Below are positions 1 through 59,576 of a DNA stretch of 64,000 nt, piece after piece (positions within the stretch are counted from its first letter, which is position 1; every line of letters starts with the position of its first letter). The notes under the pieces are model-generated. The model saw nothing but the letters and a program-made list of their open reading frames with translations, ran no database searches and was not told the origin of the DNA. The stretch comes from Eledone cirrhosa (lineage: Eukaryota), in assembly GCA_964016885.1 (NCBI GenBank), contig OZ024742.1:141546001-141610000 (forward strand). The letters run 5' to 3'. Made by a program: the position numbers and the translations under genes.

Positions 1-3000
1 GTAGATAGTACCGCGATGACATCTTTGGACAGCTGCTGATGACATGGGTGATAACCTCGATGTTAGTTCTGCAGAGTCTGCACTTGTTATCACATCTAGG
101 TATTTTGCCTGCATCCCTATCTCTTTTGTGAATCAGGTATTTCGTGCTAATCTCCTGTTCCTGGATTGCAAAAGCTTATCCTTCAAAGTGGGAGCCAATA
201 TAGCGGTTGTTGGTCGAAGATAGACTACTTTCCTTATCTATATTACTCTCACTCTGGAGCTTCCTGGCAACATACCCATGCATGATTTTTTGCTGATAGG
301 CATGCAGTTTTTCATCCATGGATTCACTGCGATACTGCTGAGCGACATCCCTGGGTGTGAGTTTTTGATTATCACACAGGGAATATCTCGCAAGGAGTTC
401 CTTCCCAACTCTCATGATCTTATCTGTTTCATGCAGATAGACTTGCTCGAGAAGCGGGCTCCTACGCTTCGAGGTTCGTAGATGTTGTCGGAGAAATATG
501 ATGCGACATTCAAATGTTGTCTGGACTGATGTTAGTCCTCTGCCTCCCTGCTTACGTTTCAAGTAAAGGCGGTCTATGTCACTGTTGATGTGGAAGTTTC
601 CGGTGTTGTTCAATATTTTTCGAGTTCCAACATCAACTGCTCGGATTTCGTCTATCGTCCAATTGAGTATTCCAAACGTTTGATGTTAGGACAGGCACAG
701 CAAACACATTGTGAGCCACTGTTTTGTTTTGCGCAGAGAGTTCCGATGACCAGATCTTTCTTAATCGGGTGTAGTATTCCCTGGTTATGCGTTCTTTATT
801 ACAGATACCATTATAGCATATGTTCTCATCTATCCCCAGGTATCTGTAGCAGTCCTCACCAGATATCGGTGAAACAGTTAGACCATTGATGACAATGTTG
901 CTAGATTGGGTTGTTGTTTTTCCCCGCTTTACAGTCATGTATGAGCATTTATCTTAGCCAAACTCCATTCCTATATCCTTTGAGAACGTTGTAACCAGGT
1001 CAAGATTTTTCTTCATCCCATCCATGTTCTTGGCATAGAGTTTCAACTCGTCCACAAAGAAGTTATGGGTTAGGTTCGTATTTCTGTCCTCCTGTGAGCC
1101 AATGATGTATCTCTCACATTTCTTGAGCAGAAAGGACAAGGGGTTTAATGACAAGATGAACAATATCACTGAGAGACTGTCCCCCTGAAATATACACCTG
1201 CAATATTTTATTTTATCAGTGAAAATAGAGTCCCCCTCTCTGTTTTTAACCTTAGGATAGTAGCCCAAGAAGAAGACAGCCTCTCTATGGCTCTGACAAT
1301 AATGTCTGGGACTTTAGCAAGTTGGAAGGCTTCTATCATCCAAGCGTGGGGAACAGAATCGAAAGCTTTCCTGTAGTCCAGCCAGACTGTAGTCATATTC
1401 CTCCTAAGTTGTCGCACCTCCGACATCGCAGTTTTGTTGATTAGAAGTTGTTCAGAACATCCCCAAACCCTTTTCTTTCCAGCTGCTTGTTCATATGTGA
1501 TGATGTTATTATTCTCACAGTGATCTTGGAGGAATAGGTTCAGGCAGGCTGTATACATCTTATACATCAGGTTCTGGCATGCAATTGGTCGGTATTTTTT
1601 TGCCAAGTGGGTGTCTTTGTTCTTGGGGACCAGTAACGTTTGTGCTAATGTCAACCATTCTGGTATAAGTGTATATCCCTTAAGAACATGTTGGTAGAGG
1701 TCAGTAAGATACCTCCGATAGAATATTAGTTTTTTGTACCAGTAGCCAACAATCATGTCTCTTCCTGGTGTTTTCTGATCTTGGAGTTTTCCTATCACAG
1801 TCTCAAGGGTACCCTCACTTATTTCGTATGTTTTTTGTTGTAGTGTAGGGGCAATAGTTCTTTCGGATTTCTCTTAGCCGCACTGCATCTTGGTTGAAAT
1901 TCTTCTTTTCATCCCATATTTTGCTCCAAAAGTAATCTATATCTGGGATGGGGCCTCAGTGACACTTATTATTTTGCCCTTTATATCTCTATAGGCTGAT
2001 GTTTGGTTTCGTCTGAATCTTTTATTAAGCATTTTTCTCTCATCTACCTTCTTCAGGTATCGGCGTTTTTGGCTAACAGCTCTCAATTTTTGTTTGAGGG
2101 TGATCAGCTTATATTGGAGAGTTCTGGTTCTACTGTTACCAAACATCGTCTCTATTTTATTTTTCACTCTTTGTTGGTGAGTTTTTTTTTGTGTTTGTTT
2201 GCATGTAAGGAGCATTGTCACATGTCCTATGTTTTTTCGTAGGTCAGCACTCTTTTTTTCTATTTTAGTTATATATGATGGTATTTTTGGTAGTGTTTTG
2301 TTCTTGTTAATATCTCTGCTATCACCAAGATAATGCTTCAATGTCATTGCTAAGGCATATAAACAGGAGTTGATTTTCCAAAATGTTGGGGCTTTTATCC
2401 GTCGTAAATATTCATCCCATATTTCGTCAATAACACGTAGTATTTCATTATTTGGTTTCAAATCCCGCCGAGGTTGACTTTGCCTTTCATCCTTACGGGG
2501 TCGATAAAATAAAGTACCAGTAATGCACTGGGTAATTGCTGGCCTTGTGCTTAAAGTAGAAACAATTATTTGGTTTTTAATTCACCATTGTCATTTTAAC
2601 ACGTTCAGCAAGAGAGATGATACATGGTGATACATGAGTTAATTTCTCTCTGGAAGATTTCGTTGAGGGAAATTTTCAATTGTTTATACTTTTGATTATC
2701 ATTATCGATAGTATTTTCCACAACAGTCGAGGTAGACTCGGATGGTATACGTGGTGTCACATTTATTCGATTATTATTATTATTTCTTCGATTATTATTA
2801 CTATCGATAGTGTTTTCCCCAGCATTCGAGGTAGACATAGATGGTACAGGTGGTGTCAAGTTTCTTACAGGCATAGTTGTTTCAAGGCGCTGTTCGAGCT
2901 GGCTGCTAGGAAGTCTAGTAGCATGGCGATCTGTAGCACGTGTTGTTGATTCCATGTTTGTTGTGGGGGACTTACAATTAATAATATTTATCTTATTTTT

Positions 3001-3480
3001 ACGTTCAACAAACGTCGCTTGTTGGCGTAATTGTTTCGCTGTGAAATAATTTAGCTCTGGGTGCATTTCGTCCCAGTGTAGCTTCATTCTATTCATATTG
3101 CCATTTTATAACAATTAAATAAATCATCATTAAGTTCGCAACTCCAAGAGAAATGCGATTTATAATTTCGGTTTCTTCTGTAGCTACAACTGAATAAAGT
3201 TTGATTACCTTCTTTGTTATTTGTCTTCGATACTTCCTTAATTTTTTTGTTGATGTTGTCTTCAGCCATGCTGTTTGTAGCAAATCCTTGTAAAATGAAT
3301 TATGTATGTAGTCGGATATCTCTGCGAATTCGGATAAAAGGTGTCTTCAGAAGGGATAGTTAGAAGAATAACCAGTTATTCAACCTGGCTGTAGTTGTGG
3401 CATTACTGTCGGAGATAGTATTCATCTTAAATTTAATAAATAGTCTTCCACGCCAAAATATGCGACTGATCGCGTTGACT
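1..3480 (-). mobile_element. Decayed non-LTR retrotransposon, R4/Dong-like RLE type (RT plus CCHC knuckle); 3' end lies outside the window
   Basis: Frameshifted ORFs carry RT motifs YRPIACQN, WLDYRKAFDSVPH, IFQGDSLS, THNFFVDELKLY (YMDD-like), YRYLGI and RLYLKRKQGGRGL. Bases 1-175 on the minus strand read AFAIQEQEI...KCRLCRTNIEVITHVISSCPKM after an in-frame stop. A SINE interrupts it at about 2456-2570. Confidence 0.92.
2456..2570 (+). mobile_element. 5'-truncated tRNA-derived SINE (family A, Nin/Deu-domain-like core) inserted in the LINE
   Basis: GTTTCAAATCCCGCCGAGGTTGACTTTGCCTTTCATCCTTACGGGGTCGATAAAATAAAGTACCAG...AGAAACAATTATT, shared with more than 20 other copies in the window. Confidence 0.9.
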
Positions 3481-10434: not shown

Positions 10435-11120
10435 TTGGTGGATTGGCAGTATCGGTAGAGGGTCGGACGCCATGCTTTCCAGCATAGTTACGTCCCTTTA
10501 CGGACTCTAGTTCAAATCCCGCCGTGGTTAACTTTGCCTTTCATCCTTTCGGGGTCGATAAAATAAAGTACCAGTAATGTACTGGGTTATTGCTGGCCTT
10601 GTGCCAAAAGTAGAAACAATTATTGGAAAGGGCGGTGGATTGGCAGTATCGGTAGAGGGTCGGACGCCATGCTTGGACGCATAGTTACGGCCTTGCCATT
10701 CTGAGTTCGAATCCCGCCGAGGTTAACTTTGCCTTTCATCCTTACGGGGTCGATAAAATAAAGTACCAGTAATGTACTGGTTAATTTCTGGCCTTGTGTC
10801 AATAGTAGAAACAATTATTACTATTATTATTATAAATATCAATGAGTTCAAATCCCACCTGGGTTAGCTTTGCCTTTCATCCTTACGAGGTCGATAAAAT
10901 AAACAACCAGTCACGCAAAATTACTGGCCTTGTGCCTAAAGTAGAAAACATTATTATTATTATAAATATCAATGAGTTCAAATCCTGCCCAGGTTAGCTT
11001 TGCTTTTCATCCTTACGGGATCTAAAAAAATAAAGTACCAGTAATGCACTGGTGTCAATTTAATCCACTTTCCCCTTCCCACAAAAAATTACTGGCCTTG
11101 TGCCTAAAGTAGAAAACATT
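10435..11120 (+). mobile_element. Head-to-tail cluster of four family A SINEs
   Basis: Copies at about 10435-10625, 10630-10820, 10843-10950 and 10973-11120. A box TGGCAGTATCGG, B box GAGTTCAAATCC. Confidence 0.92.
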
Positions 11121-12395: not shown

Positions 12396-12397
<2 letters not shown>

Positions 12398-12686
12398 CAG
12401 AAGGGATATTCAATTTGTTGGTAATTCAACAAATATAAATGTTTATAACTGATTCAGAGCACTCGACAGTTTTCTGGAGTATAATATACAATGATATTAA
12501 ATAAATGTAAACTATATTTATAAAACCATATTTATTCTATTATATATATTTCAAGGGTACCAAAACTTTGGTACGCTATCATGAGATAAAATACTATCCA
12601 AGGAAAACTTGAACCGTTAAGGTATATTCTCCTTGGTTATGTCAAAATTTATAAAACACACTTCGTATTTTATTTAATATCATTGT
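12396..12686 (-). mobile_element. PLE pLTR fragment (family F) with mutated hammerhead (12533-12592) and an inverted segment
   Basis: Homologous to 45281-45618, 50230-50400, 52770-52878 and 53813-54110. Core reads CTCATGA instead of CTGATGA. Flanked by (TA)n. Confidence 0.8.
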
Positions 12687-12694
12687 ATATATAT

Positions 12695-13310
12695 ATCTAT
12701 CTATCTAAGGCGGGTAAAATTCCCGAGATCCATGGACGAGTTCTCTCCAGCGGTCTCTGTCCCTCATTATCGCTGCCATATCCTGCATCTCCAACAGACC
12801 AGTGTCTGTCCTTAGGGCATCAACATATGTTAACCTTGGTCTTCCTCTTCTAGTGTGTCCATGTAGGGGGGCTCCCAAAGGAGCACTGAGTGCAATGTCA
12901 ACTCTGGATGTCGGTGAGCATGTCCAGCCAACCTCAGTCTCCTCTGTGTCACTTTTGAGCTGACTTTTGGGATGCTCCCATACAGCTCTGAGTTTTTCAT
13001 CCTCAGTGTATACTGATTAATGTTCAGAGCCATCCTCAGCATTCTCGAGTAGCACCCATCCACCATCTGAGTGAGTTTCTTGGTCAGTGTCCAAGTCTCA
13101 GACCCATACAGCAGCACAGACTCCACTACAGCAATGAAGAGGCGGGAAGCCGCTGGAATTGGTTGAGGACTTCCTGTATTTGGGAGCAAAGATTGGGAAT
13201 ACGGAGGATGATGTGGTTGAGAGGAAGAGCAAGGCCTGGGCGGCGTGCCACAGCTTGAGTTCGGTGTGGAAGTCGGACCTTCGTAGAGACCTGAAAATCC
13301 GCCTCTTCAT
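12695..13310 (-). mobile_element. RTE-like LINE 3' fragment with 5' inversion
   Basis: Minus strand: RLFIAVVESVLLYGSETWTLTKK...GCYSRMLRMALNI, ending in an (AGAT)n tail. Plus strand 13144-13310: KPLELVEDFLYLGA...KSKAWAACHSLSSVWKSDLRRDLKIRLF. Confidence 0.88.
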
Positions 13311-14256: not shown

Positions 14257-14431
14257 AACATATCTACTAACATAAGCGCACAGATGTACGTTAATGCCAG
14301 CAAATACACAGGTTATGTCATAGTACCTAGGTGGTTCAATGCAGGAGGATGCAGAACAATAATATAAAAGACGTAAAATAAGAAAATTAAAAAAAAAAAA
14401 TTTTTTTTAAATTAACTTACTTAAATTTTCA

Positions 14432-14511
14432 CTCCAACTAATTAGTTTCTGCAATGGGATAAAGACAGTTACGTAATGAACTGTTGAGAATTTCATTGCG
14501 TCATCAGGGAG
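14432..14511 (-). ncRNA. Type I hammerhead ribozyme
   Basis: Reverse complement of 14764-14843, core intact. Confidence 0.8.
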
Positions 14512-14763
14512 GTCATTCTCAGCCAAGTCTCCAGGCAATGCGCGGACACTGGGGACTCATATAAAAATAATAATAATTCGGTAAATGGAACAGCTATCGA
14601 GGACTGGATTCCAGCTACTGAAAATTCTCACTGCCACTGATCATATGGCCGATTCAGTACCTGGAATCCAGTCCTCGATAGCTGTTCCATTTACCGAATT
14701 ATTATTATTTTTATATGAGTCCCCAGTGTCCGCGCATTGCCTGGAGACTTGGCTGAGAATGAC

Positions 14764-14843
14764 CTCCCTGATGACGCAATGAAATTCTCAACAGTTCATT
14801 ACGTAACTGTCTTTATCCCATTGCAGAAACTAATTAGTTGGAG
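14764..14843 (+). ncRNA. Type I hammerhead ribozyme
   Basis: CTCC-CTGATGA-c-GCAATG...(ACAGTT/AACTGT inner hairpin)...CATTGC-a-GAAA-CTAATTAG-TT|GGAG. Stem I is CTCC/GGAG and stem III is palindromic. Predicted cleavage after 14839. Confidence 0.82.
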
Positions 14844-15320
14844 TGAAAATTTAAGTAAGTTAATTTTTAAAAAAATTTTTTTATTTTTTAAAAAATTTTT
14901 TCTTATTTTACGTCTTTTATATTATTGTTCTGCATCCTCCTGCATTGAACCACCTAGGTACTATGACATAACCTGTGTATTTGCTGGCATTAGCGTACAT
15001 CTGTGCGCTTATGTTAGTAGATATATTAAATTATCTATATTTATCTCCAAATCACTGATTTGTCGAGCAAACCTGCCAAAACCACTTCTAAATTTTTTGG
15101 GGGTGTTAGTAGGCGTCTGTCATCTTACCATCCCATTCCTACTGACTAGCCTCTGTGTCACGTGATTGATTCTTTAGAATCGGCCATATGATCAGTGGCA
15201 GTGAGAATTTTCAGTAGCTGGAATCCAGTCCTCGATAGCTGTTCCATTTACCGAATTATTATTATTTTTATATGAGTCCCCAGTGTCCGCGCATTGCCTG
15301 GAGACTTGGCTGAGAATGAC

Positions 15321-15400
15321 CTCCCTGATGACGCAATGAAATTCTCAACAGTTCATTACGTAACTGTCTTTATCCCATTGCAGAAACTAATTAGTTGGAG
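15321..15400 (+). ncRNA. Type I hammerhead ribozyme (tandem copy)
   Basis: Identical to 14764-14843 and 557 nt downstream. Predicted cleavage after 15396. Confidence 0.82.
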
Positions 15401-15464
15401 TGAAAATTTAAGTAAGTAAGTTAATTTAAAAAAATTTTTTTTTTTTAAATTTTCTTATTTTACG

Positions 15465-16479: not shown

Positions 16480-17190
16480 CAGGATGACAAAATAAACGCA
16501 TCTTCATCACCAGAAACAGCAAACTCCCCACCTTCTATCATCTTATTAAAACATACAAAACAGGGCCAAAATAAAAAATTGGACCATATTGTTTCCGACA
16601 TAACCAGTCCTTTCTACAAAATATCCTGGCTTCATTTTAGACGTCTCAAATCTCTCTTTCACACTTTCTCCAGACACGTAGACAACTCACATGAAGGCAT
16701 TAACAAACTACAAGAACTTAACGTTATCACACTTAGACAGAATAGATATCCATTTAGCTTAGACGTAGTTTCCCCTACACCTCTGCCCCCACCCCAGCTA
16801 TCGTAGTAATTACAGGTAACATCTTCACCTCTACCGATCTCAATTGTTTCGGGGTCTTTGCTGATTTACATCCACGATCTGATCTCTGTCGTGTCGTCAT
16901 GTGCAAAATCTTTTTCCTGTTTGAAGGCTCCGTCTACAAACACATTTCGGGATTTCAGATGGGGCCAAGTCTCTCGGGCCTGCTGGTCATCACGTACATG
17001 GACCAGTTGGAGCGCATTCAGCACTTGCCGCTCTTGCTCCTTCTTTTCCAGCTACGGGGATGATATCCTTATGCTCACTTCATCACTTGAAGAAACCGTC
17101 AAGATTTGTGTCTTCGAAAACGTAGACGCACACGTGAATTTTGAGGTCTAGGACCCAGACACCACTGAATCCTTCTATCTACTCGACTTT
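16480..17190 (+). pseudogene. Penelope-like reverse transcriptase relic
   Basis: Frameshifted motifs IVSDITSPFYKISWL, FSLDVVS, GFQMGPSLSGLLVITYMDQLE, SYGDDILML and FYLLDF, in PLE RT order. Confidence 0.8.
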
Positions 17191-19383: not shown

Positions 19384-20215
19384 ATAATGATTTCATTTAT
19401 TGGCCACAAGGGCCGACATATAGGGGACAATACAAAAGACTGGGACAGTGGGGTTTTACAGAAAAATCGAGTAAACAATATGAATAAACAAAGTAACAAT
19501 AACAAAGTAACAGTAAAGTAACAATAAAATTACAACAAGAAAAAATTCCCCAATAGGCGGGATGACCACCTAGGGTTCGCTCAGGTACCCCACCAGTCCT
19601 GAACGACCCGACGCTTCGAGAGCACCCTGGAAGGGCACCCCTCTCCTCTTCAAATTTACCTACCTACAGCCGCATGACCAGAGTAGGCCCACTCACACGG
19701 GCCATTCTCGCCACATTCACCCACCTTTCAGCAAATGTACTGGGGAGCAGCACTTCTCTCTCCACCCTCACCTTCCTTTCCAAGTGAAACTTGAAAAAGT
19801 TGATGAAGGATTGGCCGAAGAGAAAAGTGTCTGTCTTCAGTCCTTTCAACCTCGTCCATCATACAACCTCTTTCGCTACTGCCACCAGACAGAGGAAAAT
19901 TGCCTGCCCTTCCTGGCCAAAAGAAGGCGGCGGGTCGATCTTCACTATGGACTCGGCCGATAGCCGGATCCGTTCTACACGCGACAACAGCTGTTCAACA
20001 TAACTCCATAAGTCAGTAATGCACGGACACTGGACGAGTGCGTGCAGAACGGTTTCGTCGCTCTGCGCGCATCTCGGGCAGGTCCGTCTGACAGCACTTC
20101 CGTGCCTGTAGAGTTTATCTCGAACTGGCAGTGCCCCCCGGTAGCACTGCCAAGCGAGGGATTTTTGGAAATTATCCATCGTCCCCGGCTCGAAAGTTCT
20201 CCGGTACAGACTGGT
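19384..20215 (-). mobile_element. L1/Tx1-like LINE 3' fragment (zf-RVT region plus 3' UTR), abutting a truncated SINE at 19296-19383
   Basis: MDNFQKSLAWQCYRGALPVRDKL...TCPRCAQSDETVLHALVQCP...LW; GC-rich relative to its flanks. Confidence 0.85.
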
Positions 20216-20741
20216 TAGATGAAAGGCAATAATAAGATGCTGTAACACTAGTGTCTTGTTTCTGTCAGGAATATTAACAATATATGTTATATGTTTGGAG
20301 TTAAATTATCCCTGACAGAAATTACTAAACTCTATGGTAAGAGAAAAACAATAGAAAAAAGTGAAGAGTAGTATCGTTATATATACTAGCAGAAAAACCA
20401 CCATATATGCTAGCAGGTGTAGTGTGTATATTGATATTATACGCAAGTATATATACATGTAGATATGATACGTCAAATAAAATCGTAATTGACAATATAT
20501 AATACATAGAAATTAAACGAACACTGTCTTATTTAATCAGTAACGTAATCCATGATTCATTAAAAAAGACGATATTATATATAAACTGCATTAGGAGAAA
20601 ATTAGTGACAGAAAATTAGCGATGGCCAACCGGAAGTGTTGATATTTCAGAAATTTTAAAGAAGTGAATCTTAAAATAAACAAAATATATTTAATGAACA
20701 GCCACGAAATTTAGTAGATAAATTATGTAATATTCATTATA

Positions 20742-27003: not shown

Positions 27004-27132
27004 ATCTGAGTATTTAGAATATTAATAGTAACATTCGATTCGTTTGAAATTATGCAAACAAGCCTCAATTTTATAGCCATGTCAGTAGAATGAACCCTTC
27101 ATTCTTGCTCTTGTGTTGGTATGTGAACAGAA

Positions 27133-27176
27133 CTGCAGACACTAATGTTTCTGGATATCACCCTTCATCAGTACAG
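27133..27176 (-). ncRNA. Type I hammerhead ribozyme
   Basis: CTGTA-CTGATGA-AGGGTGATATCCA-GAAA-CATTAGTG-TC|TGCAG. Stem I is kept through a G.U pair. Confidence 0.82.
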
Positions 27177-27353
27177 CTCACTGTTCACCTGCCAAACTGT
27201 CAGAGTTAGTGAAAATATATGCTATTTTCAAAAATACACAGTGACTGATCAGCCAGTCAGCTAATATGCAAATCAGGCCGATCAGTCACTGTGTATTTTT
27301 GAAAATAGCATATATTTTCACTAGCTCTGACAGTTTGGCAGGTGAACAGTGAG

Positions 27354-27397
27354 CTGCACTGATGAAGGGTGATATCCAGAAACATTAGTGTCTGCAG
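27354..27397 (+). ncRNA. Type I hammerhead ribozyme
   Basis: CTGCA-CTGATGA-a-GGGT-GAT-ATCC-a-GAAA-CATTAGTG-TC|TGCAG. Predicted cleavage after 27392 (GUC). Confidence 0.87.
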
Positions 27398-27502
27398 TTC
27401 TGTTCACATACCAACACAAGAGCAAGAATGAAGTGTTCATTCTACTGACATGGCTATAAAATTGAGGCTTGTTTGCATAATTGCAAACGAATCGAATGTT
27501 GC

Positions 27503-30109: not shown

Positions 30110-31770
30110 ACTAAAAATTCCGTCTCTATCAATCTCACCAGTTTTAACTTCCTAGACATTAACTTAGACCTACGTACAGACGCAGTGAAAAACGTAGGCA
30201 TATTCATAAGGACTCTAGTCACCCCTCTATAGTTTTTAACAATCTCAATCAGAATTGTTTCTACTTTTGGCACAAGGCCAGCAATTATAACAGTGTATTA
30301 CTGGTACTTTATTTTATCAACCCCGTAAGGATGAAAGGCAAAGTTAACCTCGGCGGGATTTGAACTCAGAATAGCAAGGGCCGTAACTATATGCGTCAAA
30401 GCATGGCGTCCGACCCTCTACCGATACTGCCAATTCACCGCATTCTCATTAATAATTGTTTCTACTTTAGGCACAAGGCCAGCAATTACCCAGTGCATTA
30501 CTGGTACTTTATTTTATCGACCCCGTAAGGATGAAAGGCAAAGTCAACCTCGGCGGGATTTGAACTCAGATCGTAAAGGGACATAACTATGCTGGAAAGC
30601 ATGGCGTCCGACCCTCTACCGATACTGCCAATCCACATTAATAATATCAGCAAGAATGTATCCAACGCCTCTTTTACTAAGGTCATTTTTACAGGACAGC
30701 CCCCTACTACAACTCAACCATAAGCACAGCAGCTTCTGAGTGAGAATCTCTTACCTTCCAGATCCCCGTCCTATATCTTGCAAGAAAAATTCTAGACATA
30801 AAGCTGTTGTGTCATTTGCACCACCATTCGCGTTCAACGTGAAGACTAATGTTGGTAGCCCTCTTAGATTTTCACTTCCTTGTAGGCCATAAATACCGGC
30901 AAATTTTCAACCGCCACACAGTGAAAATAAGCTACTCTTTTTACCAAAAGCATTAAATCCTACATCACCAACAAACACAAACACCTTCCATCTTACAGAT
31001 GCTCATACAGAAGACCAAAGACATGCCCCCTGGATCAACAGTGCAACAAGACGGCAAGGATATATGAAGCAGAAGTGACTTCTACCAAACTGAAGCCATG
31101 ATTTATGTAGGAATGTCTGAGAGCCGGCTCAAAAGCCATTTCCTGAACCACGAAGCAACCTTAAGACATCCTGGCAAAAAACATACAACTCCGTTTGTGA
31201 ACCATGTAGGAAATCTCAAAGATAACGGCGCAGCATTCTCCATTATATTGAGGATACTGGAAATACCCCCCCCCCCCACATCAATAGGACAAACTTTTCT
31301 AGCTGTGTGTAACCCGGAGAAGTGGAATATTCTCTCACAACTGGCTTCAGGGAAACGTAGCTTAAATACGCTCCTCGTCTGCTTCAATCCTTGTCCCCAT
31401 AAAGCAAAATTTGTTCTGAAAATGTCTAGAACAGATTAATTGAATTTGTTTTCTTTGACTTTTCAATTTAACCCCTGGGCTCCCTGTGAAACACACATTG
31501 CTTACCTTGGGTTTTCTATAGTTACCTCCCATTTCATTTACATTATTTGAGGTACTTATCTAGTTATAGATAATTTCGGGATTATACAAAATCACTGAGG
31601 GGTAGATCCCTGTTAACGGTGGCCATATCAATCTTTTGGAAGGGTCTCCGTTATTCTTCGGTTTTGAAACTGCAGTAAGGGAACTTTAGGCTGCTTGACT
31701 AGGAATATATCCCAAGTGGAAGATTTTAAATTAATTTATTGGGATCTACACCTCTGTGATTTTGTATAAG
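30108..31770 (+). mobile_element. 5'-truncated Penelope-like element (RT thumb, linker, GIY-YIG endonuclease, 3' region), interrupted by two SINEs
   Basis: Motifs [10 protein letters not shown]; VSFAPPFAFNVKTNVG; GHKYRQIFNRHTVKISYS; CSYRRPKTCPLDQQC; RIYEAEV...IYVGMSESRLKSHFLNH; CPHKAKF. A degenerate hammerhead end GAAACTGCAGTA lies at about 31666, with a short IR at 31582-31610/31741-31769. Confidence 0.88.
30253..30637 (-). mobile_element. Two tandem full-length family A SINEs
   Basis: Consensus matches at 30253-30442 and 30451-30637. Confidence 0.92.
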
Positions 31771-33284: not shown

Positions 33285-34200
<916 letters not shown>

Positions 34201-44297: not shown

Positions 44298-44342
<45 letters not shown>

Positions 44343-44373
44343 AGATCAAAAGATGGTTAAAGGAGTTCAATAT

Positions 44374-44442
44374 ATTTTATTATGCGCATTTCAAAAACAA
44401 ACATCATCAAACAATAATATTTGTGTTTTCATCAGATAAAAC
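44374..44442 (-). ncRNA. Type I hammerhead ribozyme
   Basis: GTTTTAT-CTGATGA-AAAC.ACAAATATTATTG-tt-TGATGATGTTTGT.TTTT-GAAA-TGCGCA-TA|ATAAAAT. Long G.U-rich stem II and palindromic stem III, in a ~270-bp insert between (TA)n tracts. Confidence 0.85.
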
Positions 44443-44602
44443 AGGAGAACATGATATGAAGGCTAAAAAAAACACTTGTTGATAGTGCAGTTTTAAATCA
44501 ACATATCATCTTATATTATGCATACTCCAGTCCCACAAACTGTAGAGTGCTTCTTATCCGATATCTGCATTGCTTTATTGTACTACAATAAAACTCACCT
44601 CC

Positions 44603-44663
<61 letters not shown>

Positions 44664-45202: not shown

Positions 45203-45280
<78 letters not shown>

Positions 45281-45281
<1 letters not shown>

Positions 45282-45618
45282 ATGATATTAAATAAATGGA
45301 AACTATATTTATGAAACCATATTTATTCTATTATATATATTTCAAGGGTACCATAACTTTGGTACGCTTTCATCAGATAAAATACGAAGTGTGTTTTTAT
45401 AAATTTTGAGATAACCAAGGAAAATACCTTAACTGTTCAAGTTTTCCTTGAATAGTCTATCCAAGGAAAACTTGAACCGTTAAGGTATTTTCCTTGGTTA
45501 TGTCAAAATTTATAAAACATTGAATATTATACTCCAGAAAACTTGTCGAGTGCTCTGAATCAGTTATAAACATTTATATTTGTTGAATTACCAACAAATT
45601 GAATATCCCTTCTGCTTA
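45281..45618. mobile_element. Family F PLE pLTR fold-back with an intact minus-strand hammerhead (45324-45384)
   Basis: TATTTTAT-CTGATGA-AAG.GTACCA...TGGTAC.CTT-GAAA-TATATA-TA|ATAGAATA. Inner palindrome at about 45392-45519 is centred near 45455. The right arm lacks the ribozyme. Confidence 0.85.
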
Positions 45619-47648: not shown

Positions 47649-47653
<5 letters not shown>

Positions 47654-48954
47654 GAAATGACAGGAGGCTGGATTTGTGTAAATCCTTGAAAGGTTTATTA
47701 TACTATGATCATGTCAATGACCGGGTTCCGTATGAATCCGGTGATATCATCAGGTATTCGAAATATAATACGTGAATGTAATAGATAAAATCCATGGGGC
47801 TGAAAATCGAGGACCCGAGGGCGACCGCTATTCTGTTCCTTCAACCTCAGCCGGTCGCCCTGGAGTGACGTGGCTAAAGTTTATAGTATGCTACTACCGG
47901 TCAGATAAACGAAAACAGAAAGGGATGGGAGCATAAGTTAACGTCGATCTCATGACACAAGGTAAAAAAAAGAAAGAAAGGAAGGAGAGAGAAGAAGGGG
48001 GAAAAAGAAGTAGAGAAGCCAGGGTTAGTGTCAGCTAAAAGAAGAAAGGCAACTACTACCGGTCAGATATAGGCAAGCAAGAGGGGAAAGGAAGATAAGT
48101 CTGCGGGAGGAAGACAGGAAGAGGGGAGAAGAGAGAAGTAGAAAAGTAAGGGTTGATGGCTACAAGAAGGAAGATAGAAAGAAAGAGGAAGAAAGGTCGA
48201 TATGTGTCAGACCACAGTCAAGCCAGGAGTGGCGCGAGAAAATGTTCACAGGGACCCGCATCTTAGCAGAGATGAATATATTGGGAGTCAGTGTGTTACA
48301 GTGTTTAGATTTCTAGGATGAAGTTAAAAAAGTTAATAATCAATATTCAATATTAAAGAGGTTAGAAAATCTAAAGTTCAACAGTTTAACATTTTATTAT
48401 ATAATAGTTCCGATTTGTTCTGTAATTTAAAGGTACTATGTGGCGGTTAAAACACCGGCCGCGCCCCGGGCCCCATGGCGAATTAAGCTACGCCGAGTAT
48501 TTTCATTTACTGAAAGAAGGGGAAATTTATTTTTCCAAGCACTCCAGGTGAGCTCATTCGCCAGGGAGCTGGTCGCGCCGCCATTAAAACCCACCCAACA
48601 GTCCGACAGAAAGTTGGAACTTTAAAATTTTGCTTAGAGAAGTAAAAGAGTAATGGTTGATAGCTACAAGAAGGAAGATAGAAAGAGAGAGGAAGGAAGG
48701 TCGATATTAATGTCACACCACAACTTTAGCCACGTCACTCCAGGGCGACCGGCTGAGGTTGAAGGAACAGAATAGCGGTCGCCCTCGGGTCCTCGATTTT
48801 CAGCCCCATGGATTTTATCTATTACATTTACGTATTATATTTCGAATACCTGATGATATCACCGGATTCATACGGAACCCGGTCATTGAAATGATCATAG
48901 TATAATAAACCTTTCAAGGATTTACACAAATCCAGCCTCCTGTCATTTCATTAT
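47649..48954 (-). mobile_element. 5'-truncated PLE with inverted pLTRs (~232-bp arms, ~840-bp spacer)
   Basis: 47649-47880 is the reverse complement of 48722-48954. The spacer's minus strand has a degenerate GIY-YIG C-terminus-like peptide (ATSSLANELTWS...MKILGVA...NKSELL) and a pyrimidine-rich UTR. Confidence 0.8.
48846..48903 (+). ncRNA. Type I hammerhead ribozyme; partner at 47700-47757 (-) has GACA for GAAA
   Basis: ATAC-CTGATGA-tatc-ACCGG.TTC-atac-GGA..CCGGT-catt-GAAA-TGATCA-TA|GTAT. Confidence 0.78.
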
Positions 48955-49898: not shown

Positions 49899-52010
49899 GA
49901 TGATTTATAAGAGCCCGCTTGCATGAGAATCCATTGATCTTAGGCAAGCTTCTACATAACTTGGTAAATTTTCACCCACCATTTATAAATCTTAGAAAAT
50001 AAAACGATCCTATGGGGAATGAGATTTTAATGTCTCATATAAAATAATACACCCGATTATCCACACAATACAATATAGATAGCACCCCAAACGTTTAATT
50101 GGGAATATACTCCGGTATTTCCTAATGTTTGTTGAGTGAGATGTAAATTGGTCGGGGTATCGCTAATAGCTTTCTCCGTTTATGTATTTATGTATATGCA
50201 AAAGTTTTATTTAAAATTGTTGGGTTACAACAAGTAAATATTTTATAACTGATATAAAGCACTCAACAAGTTTTGGAGTAGATATACGATATTAAACAAA
50301 TGGAAACTATATTTATAAAACCATATTTATTTCATTATACATATTTCGGGGAAACCATATTAAAAATATGGCATGCCTTCTTGAGATAAAATACAATATA
50401 TAAGCAGTTTTATAAATAATTTTGACGTACCATAAATATTGATCAACTTTCATGTAAGAAGTTGGTTTGGTAGTGAGATGTTTATAAATATTTAGTGTTA
50501 AGCACAGTTAAAAAGAAAGACGGAGAAACAGAAGAAATGTATGTAAAGAAAAACAGAGAGAAATAGAGAGAGATAGGGGAGAGAGAAATAGTGAGGAGGT
50601 GAAAAAAGAGATGCAGCTGAGGCAACGGATGAATAATAATAATTCATCATACAAATTGAGAGATTTAGGAGGGAGGGAGTACTGTAATTATTTAGTTATA
50701 GTGTTAAGGAGACGGAGAGAAATAAAAAATAAAGAGAAAACAGAGAGATAGAGAAAGATAGAGGTGGGGGGAAAAAAGAGGTAGACCAAATAATAATAAT
50801 TATATATGGGGAGGTGAGAGAAATAGGAGAGAAGTAAGAGAGAAAACAAGAGAGAAGCTCGAGAGGCAAAGTTAAAATAACCGATACTTAAATTTCATCA
50901 TGTATAAAGAGGGAGGAGAAGAAAGAGCTATATCTAGAGAGAAGGATGATAGATTTACATGTTTACGTTATGTCCTATCAATTTGAATTATCAATTCATA
51001 TGAATTGGGTATTATAATGTAAATATCAATATTCATGAATGAGACATAGATATATAATGTGTGAAAAATAATGACCATATGTTTAGTTTAAAATTCTGAG
51101 GTCGATGTACCAAAAACTGAGATAAAACTTCAAAAAATACGGAAATACATAAGTATATATGTACTTTCCGGAAAAGGAAAGAAAGAGAAAAAGAGAAGGT
51201 CATCTCAAGTTCTAGTTGATACTATAGACATACCCGTGATCTTACGTGATCAACTCTGTAATTTCTTGTTTCACAGAAAAAAATTTTCCCTTGTGTTATA
51301 AAAGATTTTATTATATATATATATACATAAAAATATATATTAATATTCCTGCCCTCACATACATGATTATCGTTCATGTATAGAATATTATGCATATCTG
51401 TAACATATCCAGAACTATAGCCACACATACATATATATATATATGCGTGCGCACATATATGTACATGGACAGATAAAATAAACAGATAAAATAAAATATA
51501 CTCTGTAATCATTCCATATTCATATTAATACATATGGCCTTTGTACAGAGACAACCAGATATTAATATATCAGCACAGAGATATCAAAACGTTAAACATA
51601 TTTTCATCACTCCCTAGAGTATCTCGGGCCATAAAAAACACAGTATGCCCCCCCATATCAACCACAGAAATCTACCCTTCCAATTTATCTGACAATATAT
51701 TGTCAAGTTCATTAGAAGCAATCAGAATCAAAAAGCAAACAAAAAACCAAAAATTATTCAACAAAACTTATTTAGCAGAAATCATTTAAAAGATTTAAGA
51801 GACCCTGTTGTTCTACAGATGCTCTTATATTTAGTATAGAAGTTTATCTAGCGTAAAATTTATTCAATAGATTGGAAGCATCTACATTTTAGGGTAGTTT
51901 AATTACATCATTAGTATATATTTATGAAGAAGGTTTAAAAGAAAAGTTGAAGGAATCGAAAGATTTATCGTCAGGTTTCATACATTAATTAAATATCTTA
52001 ACTAATTATA

Positions 52011-52685
52011 CTACATTTTAAATTTATATTTATATTTATATTTAAACGTTGAGTTCAATCTATGTCTGCAGCAACTGAATAAATTGCTCCTTAAATTAAG
52101 GGAATTTTTAGATTTTAATATAAAGAATATCTCCTCCACACAGAGGTCACATGTCTCAGATGAGGAATTAAAAGGAATCCCTCTTGAGACAATATTCCAA
52201 AACATCGAATATCCAACGTTATCATGTTTAAGTTGCCAGAGTAAGCTTGATAGTGAAGTTGAAGATTGTTTGTTTGGATCTGTGAAAGAATTCTTATGAT
52301 TATTATAGCGAAGTTTAAATTCTGTCGAGGTGGAACCAACATAGTTAAAAGAATTTAAGTTAGTTTTAACATTACAATTGTATATTATATTTTTAACTAA
52401 GCAATTGTTATTTAACGGACAGTTAGATTTATTTCTACAGTTACAGTTATTTAATTGAATATTGTTTGGGTTATTATTGGTATTTTGGTTAGGTTTTAAA
52501 TTCCTATTATTAATTCTGTTAATATTTTGTGCTAAATTTTTGGTGGACGAGTAAGTTAATTTTATAGTATGTCTATTAAAAATTGAGTGATATTTATGTG
52601 TTCTAGGGAAGCGTTTGTCAAGAGCATTAAAAAATAGTTTAGCAATGTGGGTTTTAATATTTAGTGAGAAAGGGGGACAAACCAT
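52011..52685 (-). pseudogene. PLE linker plus GIY-YIG endonuclease, 224 aa open, 5'-truncated
   Basis: PPFSLNIKT..HKYHSIFNRHTIKLTYS..CNCRNKSNCPLNNNC..NIIYNCNV..NYVGSTSTEFKLRYNNHKNSF..CDLCVEE..LNLRS..CRH. Confidence 0.93.
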
Positions 52686-52768
52686 ATTATATTTCTAGTT
52701 CTATTTCTTTTCTGGCTTTTGGAATTATTGTAATGTTTTCTATTATAGTTGTTAAAGTTGTTACCGTA

Positions 52769-52831
52769 ATTTATCTGAAGAAGGCATGCCATATTTTTAA
52801 TATGGTATCCCCGAAATATGTATAATGAAAT
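52769..52831 (+). ncRNA. Type I hammerhead ribozyme
   Basis: TTTAT-CTGAAGA-aGGcATGCCATATT-ttt-AATATGGTATcCCc-GAAA-TATGTA-TA|ATGAA. Confidence 0.8.
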
Positions 52832-53329
52832 AAATATGGTTTTATAAATATAGTTTCCATTTGTTTAATATCGTATATATATATATATATATATATCAGT
52901 TTCGACAGATATTGTTCCAGTTGTTCGACAAACGGAACACCAATAACGTGTAAGTAGCTGAGTAATTCTCAGACACGTGTACCCTTTACGAACTTCTCAG
53001 GGAGATTCTGTGTGACACAGAGTGTGACAAGACTGGCCCTTTGAATTACAGGTGCAGTCCATTCGATGGGCTTCCAAACATTTTTTGTGAACCTAATTTC
53101 ACTCATAAGGCTGGGATCAATCTGAGGCTATGGTGACGCCAAAGAACCCGGGACCAAATAAATACTAAGCGAATTCCTTAACTATTCGGCCAATATATCC
53201 ATACACACACACACGCGCGCACACATATCTTTTCCAATGCATCACATGAAAGTCTTGAAACTGGTGGTAAAGCGGAGATAAGTCAAACTGTTAATATATA
53301 GTCTCACTTTCCACATGTGTTGATTGCTC

Positions 53330-53592: not shown

Positions 53593-53797
53593 CCCCACTC
53601 TCCAGAGCGTGAAATTAATAAACATTCGTTGTACTGCCTCTCTGTTTTGTTCCTGTTCAAATTTTTCCATTATATATATATATATATATATATAGTGAAA
53701 AGTGGAACGGGAACAAAACAGAGAGGCAGTACGAACAAAGGTTTATTAGTTTCACGCTCTTGAGAGTGGGGGTGGGGGAGGGAACGACGTTTCGGGC
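53593..53797. repeat. Convergent inverted repeat centred on a (TA)n tract, with hammerhead 3' half
   Basis: 53593-53670 is the diverged reverse complement of 53695-53771. Minus strand reads CCCGAAACGTC around 53786-53796. Confidence 0.75.
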
Positions 53798-53812
53798 ATA
53801 TATATACAATTA

Positions 53813-54110
53813 TATTAAATAAATGGAAACTATATTTATAAAACCATATTTATTTTATTATATATATTTCAAGGGTACCAAGACACATTGGTACGCTTTC
53901 ATTAGATAAAATACAAACTTTGCATTTTATCTGATGAAAGCGCACCAATGTGCCTTGGTACCCTTGAAATATATATAATAAAATAAATATGGTTTTATAA
54001 ATCTAGTTTCCATTTATTTAATATCATTGAATATTTACTCTAGTAATATGTTGAGTGCTCTAAATCAGTATATTTGTCGGACTTCCAACAAATTAAATAC
54101 CCCTTCTACT
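53813..54110. mobile_element. Family F fold-back (centre 53918) with intact plus-strand hammerhead 53924-53984
   Basis: ATTTTAT-CTGATGA-AAG.G.ACCAA...TTGGT.C.CTT-GAAA-TATATA-TA|ATAAAAT. The left-arm partner reads CTAATGA. Arms are about 105 bp with essentially no spacer. Confidence 0.87.
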
Positions 54111-58391: not shown

Positions 58392-58653
58392 TAGATAGTT
58401 AGATAGATGAGAGTGGGATGAAAGAGAGAGAGTGAGAGAGTAAATTATTATACGTGTGTGTGTGTGTTCGTTTGTGTGAATGTGTGTGTGTGTGGACGTG
58501 TGTCTAGTAACTGTAAAGAGCAAAGTCGGATTGACAATTTTGTCATCATATACTTGCACTGTCACTTGAAGTGATTTTATGTCACACACACACACACACA
58601 CATATGTAGATTACCGAGTTGTGTCAGGGTGGTTGGGTAATAATACTCAGTTA

Positions 58654-59042
58654 AATAATTGTTTCTACTTTTGGCACAAGGCCAGCAATTACTCAGTGCA
58701 TTACTGGTACTTTATTTTATCGACCCCCATGAAAGGCAAAGTTAACCTCGGCGGGATTTGAACTCAGACTGGCAAGGGCCGTAACTCTATACGTCAAAGC
58801 ATGGCGTCTGACCCTCTACCGATACTGCCAATTCACCGCCCTTTACTCAGTTAAATAATTGTTTCTACTTTAGGCACAAGGCCAGCAATTACCCAGTGCA
58901 TTACTGGTACTTTATTTTATCGACCCCGTAAGGATGAAAGGCAAAGTCAACCTCGGCGGGATTTGAACTCAGACTGGCAAGGGCCGTAACTATGCTGGAA
59001 AGCATGTCCGACCCTCTACCGATACTGCCAATCCACCGCCCT
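58654..59042 (-). mobile_element. Tandem dimer of family A SINEs with repeated target sequence
   Basis: Two full copies. TACTCAGTTAAAT occurs before, between and twice after them. Confidence 0.92.
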
Positions 59043-59104
59043 TTACTCAGTTAAATAATACTCAGTTAAATGTACTCAAGACATTGGTAGAGTATAGGGA
59101 TCTT

Positions 59105-59518: not shown

Positions 59519-59576
59519 TTCATTCTGAGGATGGAAAGCAAAATCTTTTGCTTTTAAGAAACCACTGGTAAATGGA
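59519..59576 (+). ncRNA. Type I hammerhead ribozyme
   Basis: TTCATT-CTGAGGA-tgGAAAGCAAAA-tc-TTTTGCTTTTaa-GAAA-CCACTGG-TA|AATGGA. About 30 nt later the sequence enters (TA)n. Confidence 0.83.

What the first reader, a model, noticed from the sequence alone, without database searches (positions are those of the whole stretch)
50215..52878. Coding PLE links family F hammerhead hairpins to a GIY-YIG mobiliser
Seen: an almost intact GIY-YIG ORF bracketed by inverted pLTRs homologous to the ORF-less fold-backs at 12.4, 45.3 and 53.8 kb. Stem II differs between subfamilies but stays paired (ATGCCATATT/AATATGGTAT versus GTACCA/TGGTAC), which is covariation support for the fold. Inference: the hairpins are products of Penelope-type reverse transcription with early template switching.
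Basis: partly seen in the sequence, partly recalled or inferred. Interest (0 to 1): 0.7.

Follow-up and report, generated by a model that had tools for sequence, protein, structure and literature searches.

The report
Truncated Hydra-clade Penelope-like retrotransposon copy
This is a broken, front-truncated copy of a known kind of animal jumping gene whose ends carry a small self-cutting RNA motif; nearby short repeats are related copies, and the arrangement is ordinary for this group.

Summary
The anatomy is real. 50197-52875 is a 5'-truncated Penelope-like element (PLE) of the Hydra clade. It has a minus-strand linker plus GIY-YIG reading frame (52011-52685), a sense 3' pLTR carrying a type I hammerhead and a ~90-nt tail, and a 110-nt inverted pLTR (97% identical) at the 5' break. 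Both ends sit in (TA)n-type sequence. The arms at 12.4, 45.3 and 53.8 kb are homologous, but form a sister subfamily (80-85% to this copy, 91-95% to each other). Stem II shows two compensatory changes, which is real but rests on only two lineages. It is not a mobiliser: the RT core is missing and the frame is shifted near 52680. The 12.4-kb locus is barely a hairpin (22 bp). Inverted pLTRs, an optional tail, (TA)n targets, opposite-strand hammerhead pairs, a Hydra family with an inverted 5' copy and an octopus Hydra family are all published. Two things remain unexplained: a 1.6-kb spacer between the stop codon and the hammerhead, and truncation points that recur at the 5' base of RNA helices. 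Verdict: new member of a known kind, low interest.

The parts
50197..50284 (-). ~90-nt 3' tail, present on only one arm of each locus; ends in a degenerate TATG/TATT run
   Evidence: four tail hits, E<1e-17, one per locus
50285..50394 (-). Sense 3' pLTR core: type I hammerhead (C3 at 50385, cleavage triplet ending 50336, core change at G5) plus ~45 nt of conserved downstream sequence
50395..50475 (-). Segment upstream of the hammerhead, weakly similar to segment X of the 12.4/45.3-kb copies
   Evidence: 66% identity; 60 of 2000 shuffles reach the score; similar hairpin, not unusually stable here
50476..52010 (-). Non-coding spacer or long 3' UTR, single-copy in the window, pyrimidine-rich on the sense strand near the pLTR
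52011..52685 (-). Open frame of 224 codons from the first ATG: post-thumb linker, CxCx5C motif, GIY-YIG endonuclease, CxxC and CxH motifs (Hydra type)
52680..52765 (-). Upstream ~28 codons of the same PLE protein in another frame (N-rich, basic stretch, then the IIWF motif); frameshift near 52680; 5' truncation near 52766
52766..52875 (+). Inverted, tail-less pLTR with an intact hammerhead core (C3 at 52775, cleavage after 52824)
52872..52896 (.). (TA)n target repeat
12396..12690 (.). Locus B, ORF-less, head-to-head. Left arm (-): tail plus hammerhead (G5 changed). Right arm (+): segment X with the hammerhead block missing, no tail
45277..45616 (.). Locus C, ORF-less. Left arm (-): X plus intact hammerhead, no tail. 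Right arm (+): X, hammerhead block missing, tail
53803..54109 (.). Locus D, ORF-less true fold-back. Left arm (-): G5 changed, no tail. Right arm (+): intact core, tail
44335..44606 (.). Locus E, distant relative with the same layout: hammerhead arm (-) without tail, tail-like arm (+) without hammerhead
   Evidence: (tail E 9e-4)

Best explanation
50197-52875 is a dead-on-arrival, 5'-truncated insertion of a Hydra-clade Penelope-like retrotransposon; the ORF-less loci are shorter insertions of a sister subfamily. SHOWN: the 3' third of a Hydra-type RT-EN frame, a sense pLTR with hammerhead and tail, an inverted tail-less pLTR at the 5' break, and (TA)n at the ends. INFERRED, by analogy with published PLE biochemistry: an intact RT-GIY-YIG protein from another locus nicked a (TA)n tract on both strands and primed reverse transcription at two fixed sites near the RNA 3' end, one at the far end of the tail and one ~90 nt inside it. 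The two cDNAs stopped early and were joined head-to-head. One ran 2.6 kb here; in the ORF-less loci both stopped within ~200 nt. I put this two-priming route at about 0.5, fold-back or template switching at about 0.35, and spread from a short non-autonomous master at about 0.15. The hammerhead is an inherited pLTR part with a palindromic 2-bp helix III, probably active only as a dimer or with protein help. In these genomic copies it is probably silent. This copy supplies no RT and most likely no endonuclease.
For: 6954 relatives at E<=0.001; 24 of 24 relatives of >=580 aa carry YxDD, CxLC..E and CxH. The window frame has CxCx5C, CxxC and CxH and no CCHH, as Craig 2021 defines Hydra. GIY-YIG fold. 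No tblastn hit to the RT part anywhere in the window. One tail per locus in 4 of 4 loci, plus locus E. The four tail-less arms end within a few nucleotides of one site. 7 of 8 ends touch (TA)n. Frangieh 2024: a PLE protein cleaves and extends both strands, and its two RT start sites bound the tail. Penelope-13_HM, a Hydra family, has an inverted 5'-truncated copy. At locus B each arm holds sequence the other lacks. An open 224-codon frame is expected without selection: P(no new stop) 0.60 at 1.4% divergence.
Against: The RT-side Hydra diagnostics cannot be read in this copy. No clade phylogeny with named references was run. The 1.6-kb spacer is far longer than described Hydra families allow (whole elements 'generally <3 kb'). 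Loci C and D have near-perfect palindromic centres, which favours fold-back, and later deletion could explain B. Pfam and Rfam gave no direct hit for the window sequences. Foldseek had no match at E<=0.001. The frame departs from 6 of 48 well-conserved internal columns, against a median of 3 for relatives.
Confidence: 0.85

Rival explanations
1. Same element, but the inverted arm is made by self-priming or a template switch: the nascent strand turns back and copies pLTR sequence (the first reader's model; Arkhipova 2013 proposes self-priming on an antisense template).
For: Locus C has a palindrome with a ~1-nt centre and D one with a few nucleotides at the centre. The arms of A are 97% identical. 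At 52766 the first ~10 nt could be a microhomology between the reading frame and the pLTR, but support is weak: the implied motif spacing of 28 aa is reached by 2 of 40 relatives. Published argument.
Against: At B the right arm holds ~70 nt absent from the left and the left holds the tail absent from the right. In A the switch would have to jump 2.4 kb back. The fixed ends of the tail-less arms match an RT start site.
Confidence: 0.35
2. The ORF-less loci B and C descend from a short non-autonomous master RNA with a fixed 5' end (retrozyme- or SINE-like), mobilised in trans by Hydra PLE proteins.
For: Three arms (B right, C left, C right) begin at the same nucleotide, the 5' base of a hairpin. 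B and C tails are identical at 89 of 89 aligned positions. Li 2026 argues that animal retrozymes are non-autonomous PLE derivatives.
Against: No tandem same-strand repeats here. Layouts differ at every locus. Only two loci carry X.
Confidence: 0.2
3. The locus is a working endonuclease-only gene or element: the ATG at 52685 gives a 224-aa GIY-YIG protein that acts in trans.
For: Open frame, catalytic residues kept, confident model.
Against: The ATG lies at the frameshift, and homology continues upstream in another frame. Open length is expected neutrally. A second decayed remnant is cut at a similar place. No RT. No known promoter.
Confidence: 0.04
4. The arms are DNA-transposon or MITE terminal inverted repeats, and the reading frame is passenger DNA.
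For: Inverted ends in TA-rich targets.
Against: The tail is on one arm only, the hammerhead has compensatory changes, inner boundaries vary, and orientation matches a PLE 3' end.
Confidence: 0.02

Closest known systems
Hydra-clade PLEs (Craig et al. 2021, PMC8557442; e.g. Hydra-1_Obim, Hydra-2_Amil, Penelope-13_HM)
   Same: C-terminal GIY-YIG without CCHH; CxCx5C linker; CxxC and CxH around E and N; (TA)n targets; sense type I hammerhead near the 3' end; an inverted 5'-truncated copy in Penelope-13_HM.
   Different: By eye it is not Hydra-1_Obim: helices I-III and the linker differ. The stop-to-hammerhead distance is 1.63 kb, whereas listed complete families are 2.1-2.7 kb in all. Helix III is 2 bp with a 4-nt loop. 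This copy lacks RT.
Adineta vaga Penelope elements (Arkhipova et al. 2013, PMC3846280)
   Same: Head-to-head inverted pLTRs, optional tail, palindromic junctions, microhomology deletions; in Pen1 a 0.9-1.5-kb unique spacer before the 3' pLTR.
   Different: These are the conventional Penelope type with ~840-aa ORFs, a 31-bp tail and target-site duplications. Here the tail is ~90 nt and duplications cannot be read in (TA)n.
PLE minimal hammerheads (Cervera and De la Pena 2014, PMC4209133)
   Same: Type I, long helix II, palindromic short helix III; pairs 100-700 bp apart on opposite strands attributed to truncated PLEs.
   Different: In the ORF-less subfamily helix II closes with A-U, not G10.1-C11.1.
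Non-LTR retrozymes (Li et al. 2026, bioRxiv 10.64898/2026.07.22.740005)
   Same: ORF-less hammerhead repeats homologous to PLE pLTRs.
   Different: Retrozymes are same-strand tandem repeats; these loci are inverted pairs with at most one intact core.
Poseidon PAc in vitro system (Frangieh et al. 2024, PMC11167929)
   Same: Two RT start sites that define a tail; both strands cut in AT-rich DNA; hammerhead not needed for insertion.
   Different: A different clade, and its start sites lie inside the ORF. Applying it to Hydra elements is my inference.

Membership tests
Hydra-clade PLE | C-terminal GIY-YIG endonuclease | tested here: met
   Fold match to I-TevI Z 8.8, rmsd 2.1, 88 aligned; aligns to the C-terminal ~210 aa of 24 of 24 long relatives
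Hydra-clade PLE | CxCx5C linker motif | tested here: met
   Found at residues 84-92 of the 227-aa frame
Hydra-clade PLE | CxxC and CxH flanking the conserved E and N; no CCHH | tested here: met
   absence of CCHH read from the sequence
Hydra-clade PLE | RT with RWK and DKT motifs in the same ORF | tested here: inconclusive
   RT absent from this truncated copy. Among 24 long relatives: YxDD 24, DK[TS]-type 20, RW[KR] 11
Hydra-clade PLE | Placement in the Hydra clade of an RT phylogeny | not testable with these tools
   No RT in the copy; named reference sequences could be read but not loaded
Hydra-clade PLE | Sense type I hammerhead in the 3' pLTR | tested here: met
   Motif at 50385(-), core changed at G5; intact twin at 52775(+); pairing. 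No Rfam hit
Hydra-clade PLE | Insertion into (TA)n | tested here: met
   7 of 8 outer ends within 5 nt of (TA)>=3, background 13%
Hydra-clade PLE | Short element, generally <3 kb | tested here: inconclusive
   If the 1.6-kb spacer is native, a full copy would be ~4 kb; if captured, the rule holds. One copy cannot tell
PLE insertion structure | Inverted 5'-truncated pLTR with a tail at one end only | tested here: met
   4 of 4 loci
Autonomous (mobiliser) PLE | Uninterrupted RT plus EN frame | tested here: not met
   No RT, frameshift near 52680
Non-LTR retrozyme | Tandem same-strand units, each with a complete hammerhead | tested here: not met
   All loci are inverted pairs
Type I hammerhead ribozyme | Core CUGANGA, GAAA and NUH with helices I-III | tested here: met
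   3 of 6 arms have an intact core (52775+, 45376-, 53931+); 3 of 6 are changed at G5
Type I hammerhead ribozyme | Self-cleavage | not testable with these tools
   The monomer fold lies 3-8 kcal/mol above the minimum-energy fold
Naiad/Chlamys PLE | N-terminal endonuclease | tested here: not met
   The endonuclease is followed by the stop and lies downstream of RT in relatives

The most novel reading that the evidence does not exclude
In this Hydra lineage cDNA synthesis stops at fixed, structure-defined points: the 5' base of hammerhead helix I (4 arms begin 9-16 nt upstream of CUGA, two of them in different subfamilies at the same nucleotide) and the 5' base of hairpin X (3 arms). Each insertion then joins two separately primed cDNAs, one tailed and one not. 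The ORF-less loci would be a non-autonomous class of inverted, double-primed hammerhead retroelement with a defined 5' end, distinct from tandem retrozymes. Their many genomic copies would record how PLEs finish integration, which is still open.
Probability: 0.2. Interest if true: 0.55.

Novelty: new member of a known kind. Interest (0 to 1): 0.22.

Why it matters
As a single locus it matters little: it adds an apparently undescribed Hydra-clade family and shows that one family of hammerhead hairpins in this genome is PLE debris. Its use is practical. Such hairpins score as microRNA precursors in Rfam and are easily mis-annotated, and the family is missed by Pfam and Rfam. If the recurring stop points and the one-tail rule hold across thousands of copies, the family would give a natural test of double priming against fold-back in PLE integration.

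Tried and rejected
The repeat finder on the whole window was swamped by microsatellites; BLAST and profiles were used instead. Rfam: only microRNA-like and other weak matches, all below gathering score; no hammerhead among the 150 of 237 rows shown or the 61 rows. Pfam: no family for the window frame or for 6 of 6 long relatives; GIY-YIG for 15 of 64 alignment members at E<=0.1. PDB sequence search: 4 hits at E 0.2-0.44, judged chance. Foldseek: none at E<=0.001, though its top six rows were GIY-YIG nucleases. My first structure string was mis-indexed by two columns (41% paired); one search is the corrected count. The spacer has no notable frame, and its 86-aa plus-strand frame has no Pfam hit. 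An 11-bp distal extension of helix I is possible, but the motif is self-palindromic, so I do not count it as evidence. All three core changes fall at G5; with n=3, noticed after the fact, I did not build on it. Names and sources of the relatives stayed unchecked; the Atlas gave only 'Eukaryota, commonest Mollusca' on very few records. No phylogeny, no genome-wide copy collection and no spacer-length plot were possible from one window. Literature searches; none of the listings showed this family, but Repbase, Dfam and bioRxiv supplements were not visible. Metagenome and viral contig collections were not searched.

Full report
Observation. The window is an AT-rich, microsatellite-rich animal sequence. 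An octopus-like host is my inference, from recalled SINE look-alikes and a by-eye likeness of a second remnant to Hydra-1_Obim; no call establishes it. Self-BLAST shows inverted arms at 50285-50394 and 52766-52875 (110 nt, 97.3%) and homology to 12.4, 45.3 and 53.8 kb. The left arm runs on to ~50197 through a ~90-nt tail that the right arm lacks; the right arm ends in (TA)n. The element is therefore 50197-52875.

The reading frame. A 227-codon frame lies at 52011-52694 on the minus strand. It has no Pfam hit, but phmmer finds 6954 relatives at E<=0.001, the best at 46% identity. A model from 64 sequences has pLDDT 86; its best structural matches are I-TevI (Z 8.8, rmsd 2.1, 88 aligned), T4 EndoII (7.1) and UvrC (6.0). 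The Y, YxG, R, H, E and N positions are kept. It carries CxCx5C, CxxC and CxH and no CCHH, the endonuclease signature that Craig et al. give for the Hydra clade. Of the 154 relatives held, 24 are >=580 aa. All 24 have YxDD and all 24 align to the window only through their C-terminal part, which begins about 140-190 residues after YxDD. tblastn with the 24 finds no RT-part hit in the window at E<=0.05. Homology continues ~28 codons upstream in another frame, so there is a frameshift near 52680, and it ends at the inverted arm. This is the last third of a ~700-aa protein. An open frame of this length is expected without selection (P 0.60 at 1.4% divergence), and it departs from 6 of 48 well-conserved internal columns. 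It cannot be a mobiliser.

The hammerhead. A descriptor finds 9 strict type I motifs in the window, against 0-1 in each of 20 shuffles. Six arms belong to this family: three with an intact core (52775+, 45376-, 53931+) and three changed at G5 (50385-, 12585-, 53905-). The sense copy at the element's 3' end is one of the changed ones. On the six arms 93.9% of cells pair, against 39-51% for slid controls. Two helix II pairs change on both sides (A-U/G-C and G-C/A-U), one changes on one side, the closing pair is broken in 3 of 6 and another pair in 2 of 6. The covariation score is reached by 3 of 500 shuffles, but the count of such pairs by 188 of 500. The structure was drawn from these sequences and only two lineages differ, so this is modest support. 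Helix III is 2 bp with a (near-)palindromic loop; monomer folds are 3-8 kcal/mol above the minimum, and a transcript through locus D folds as one long hairpin. Rfam does not detect the motif.

The ORF-less loci. Core identity is 80-85% between element A and loci B-D, and 91-95% among B-D: a sister subfamily, not progeny of A. All four loci are head-to-head, each has exactly one tailed arm, the tail-less arms end at nearly the same internal site, and 7 of 8 outer ends touch (TA)n against 13% background. Only D is a full fold-back; C is palindromic in segment X only, and B shares 22 bp between its arms. The right arms of B and C lack the hammerhead block, with short repeats at the deletion ends. 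Locus E (44335-44606) is a distant relative with the same layout. Inner breakpoints recur: three arms start at the first base of hairpin X, and four start 9-16 nt upstream of CUGA. B and C may not be independent.

Mechanism. I take these to be products of target-primed reverse transcription by a Hydra RT-GIY-YIG protein encoded elsewhere (0.85). Frangieh et al. showed for a Poseidon element that both strands are cut and extended and that two RT start sites bound the tail. Applied here by inference, one cDNA starts at the tail end and one at the inner site, both stop early, and they are joined head-to-head (about 0.5). Locus B, with non-nested arms, fits this. Fold-back or template switching (about 0.35) fits the near-perfect centres of C and D and is the published suggestion for rotifer elements. 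A short non-autonomous master may account for B and C. One window cannot separate these.

The spacer. The stop codon lies 1.63 kb from the hammerhead. The stretch is single-copy in the window, low in microsatellites (1.7% against 9.6%, but 38 of 156 windows are as low) and strand-biased (5 of 156 windows are as biased). Listed complete Hydra families are 2.1-2.7 kb in all. Another inverted hammerhead element at 47652-48951 also has a purine-biased non-coding interior, which hints at long UTRs in this genome; capture of host DNA has precedent in Pen1_Av. Unresolved.

Comparison with what is known. Craig 2021 (abstract, passages, sections 11-12, supplement parts and search hits) describes the clade, an octopus member and an inverted 5' copy in Penelope-13_HM. 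By my arithmetic from its tables, 10 of 24 Hydra consensus sequences end within 22 nt of the listed hammerhead stretch and 11 of 24 end 60-128 nt after it, so a ~90-nt optional tail looks normal for the clade (inference). Cervera 2014 (first part and passages) reports opposite-strand hammerhead pairs tied to truncated PLEs. Arkhipova 2013 (passages, discussion) covers head-to-head pLTRs. Frangieh 2024 was read in parts 1-2 of 4. Li 2026 (parts 1-3 of 5; supplements not visible) ties retrozymes to pLTRs. The giant squid paper (passages) notes 235 hammerhead loci. Five answered searches showed no description of this particular family; repeat databases were not visible.

Verdict. It is a new member of a known kind, interest 0.22. 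The recurring stop points and the one-tail rule are the only leads worth a genome-wide count.

Noticed in passing
window 30725-31439 (+): Second, heavily decayed Hydra-type remnant (linker plus GIY-YIG; hhalign probability 97.7, E 1.6e-12), truncated at a similar place; by eye closer to Hydra-1_Obim. No hammerhead found downstream to 33300.
   Followed up: partly
window 47652-48951: 1.3-kb element with 230-bp inverted arms (99%), an intact type I hammerhead at 48850 (+), a changed one in the left arm and a purine-rich non-coding interior; same layout as element A but a different family.
   Followed up: partly
window 27030-27500: 470-bp palindrome with head-to-head intact hammerheads at 27171 (-) and 27359 (+).
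   Followed up: no
window 59525 (+), 18206 (+): Further type I hammerhead motifs; the one at 59525 has a helix III like that listed for Hydra-1_Obim and is followed by (TA)n.
   Followed up: no
window 50383, 12583, 53903: All three core-changed arms of the family are changed at the same position (G5), all on left arms; on the plus strand these are C-to-G or C-to-T in TCA. n=3, unexplained.
   Followed up: partly
window 33285-33763 and 14409-15417: Long near-perfect palindromes (~480 and ~460 bp; the second with a third copy of one arm) beside (TA)n or T/A runs; no hammerhead core found by my scan.
   Followed up: no
window 53593-53790: Another inverted pair (87%) immediately left of locus D, ending in a short motif that resembles a hammerhead 3' half (recalled); D may be nested in an older PLE end.
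   Followed up: no
window 16758-17148 (+): Decayed frames resembling RT motifs B and C of a non-Hydra PLE (recalled resemblance; no Pfam hit).
   Followed up: partly
window 179-3105 (-), 12708-13306 (-), 19862-20305 (-): Non-LTR retrotransposon remnants: RVT_1 at 1211-1873 (E 3.5e-11), zf-RVT at 19862-20305 (E 6e-10); the 12.7-13.3-kb piece had no Pfam hit.
   Followed up: partly
window 30253-30636, 10437-10820, 58644-59059 and others: Abundant ~190-nt SINE-like repeat present as monomers, direct dimers and an inverted dimer.
   Followed up: no
window 50496-50890: Degenerate ~200-nt internal duplication in the purine-rich part of the spacer (76% over 63 nt).
   Followed up: no
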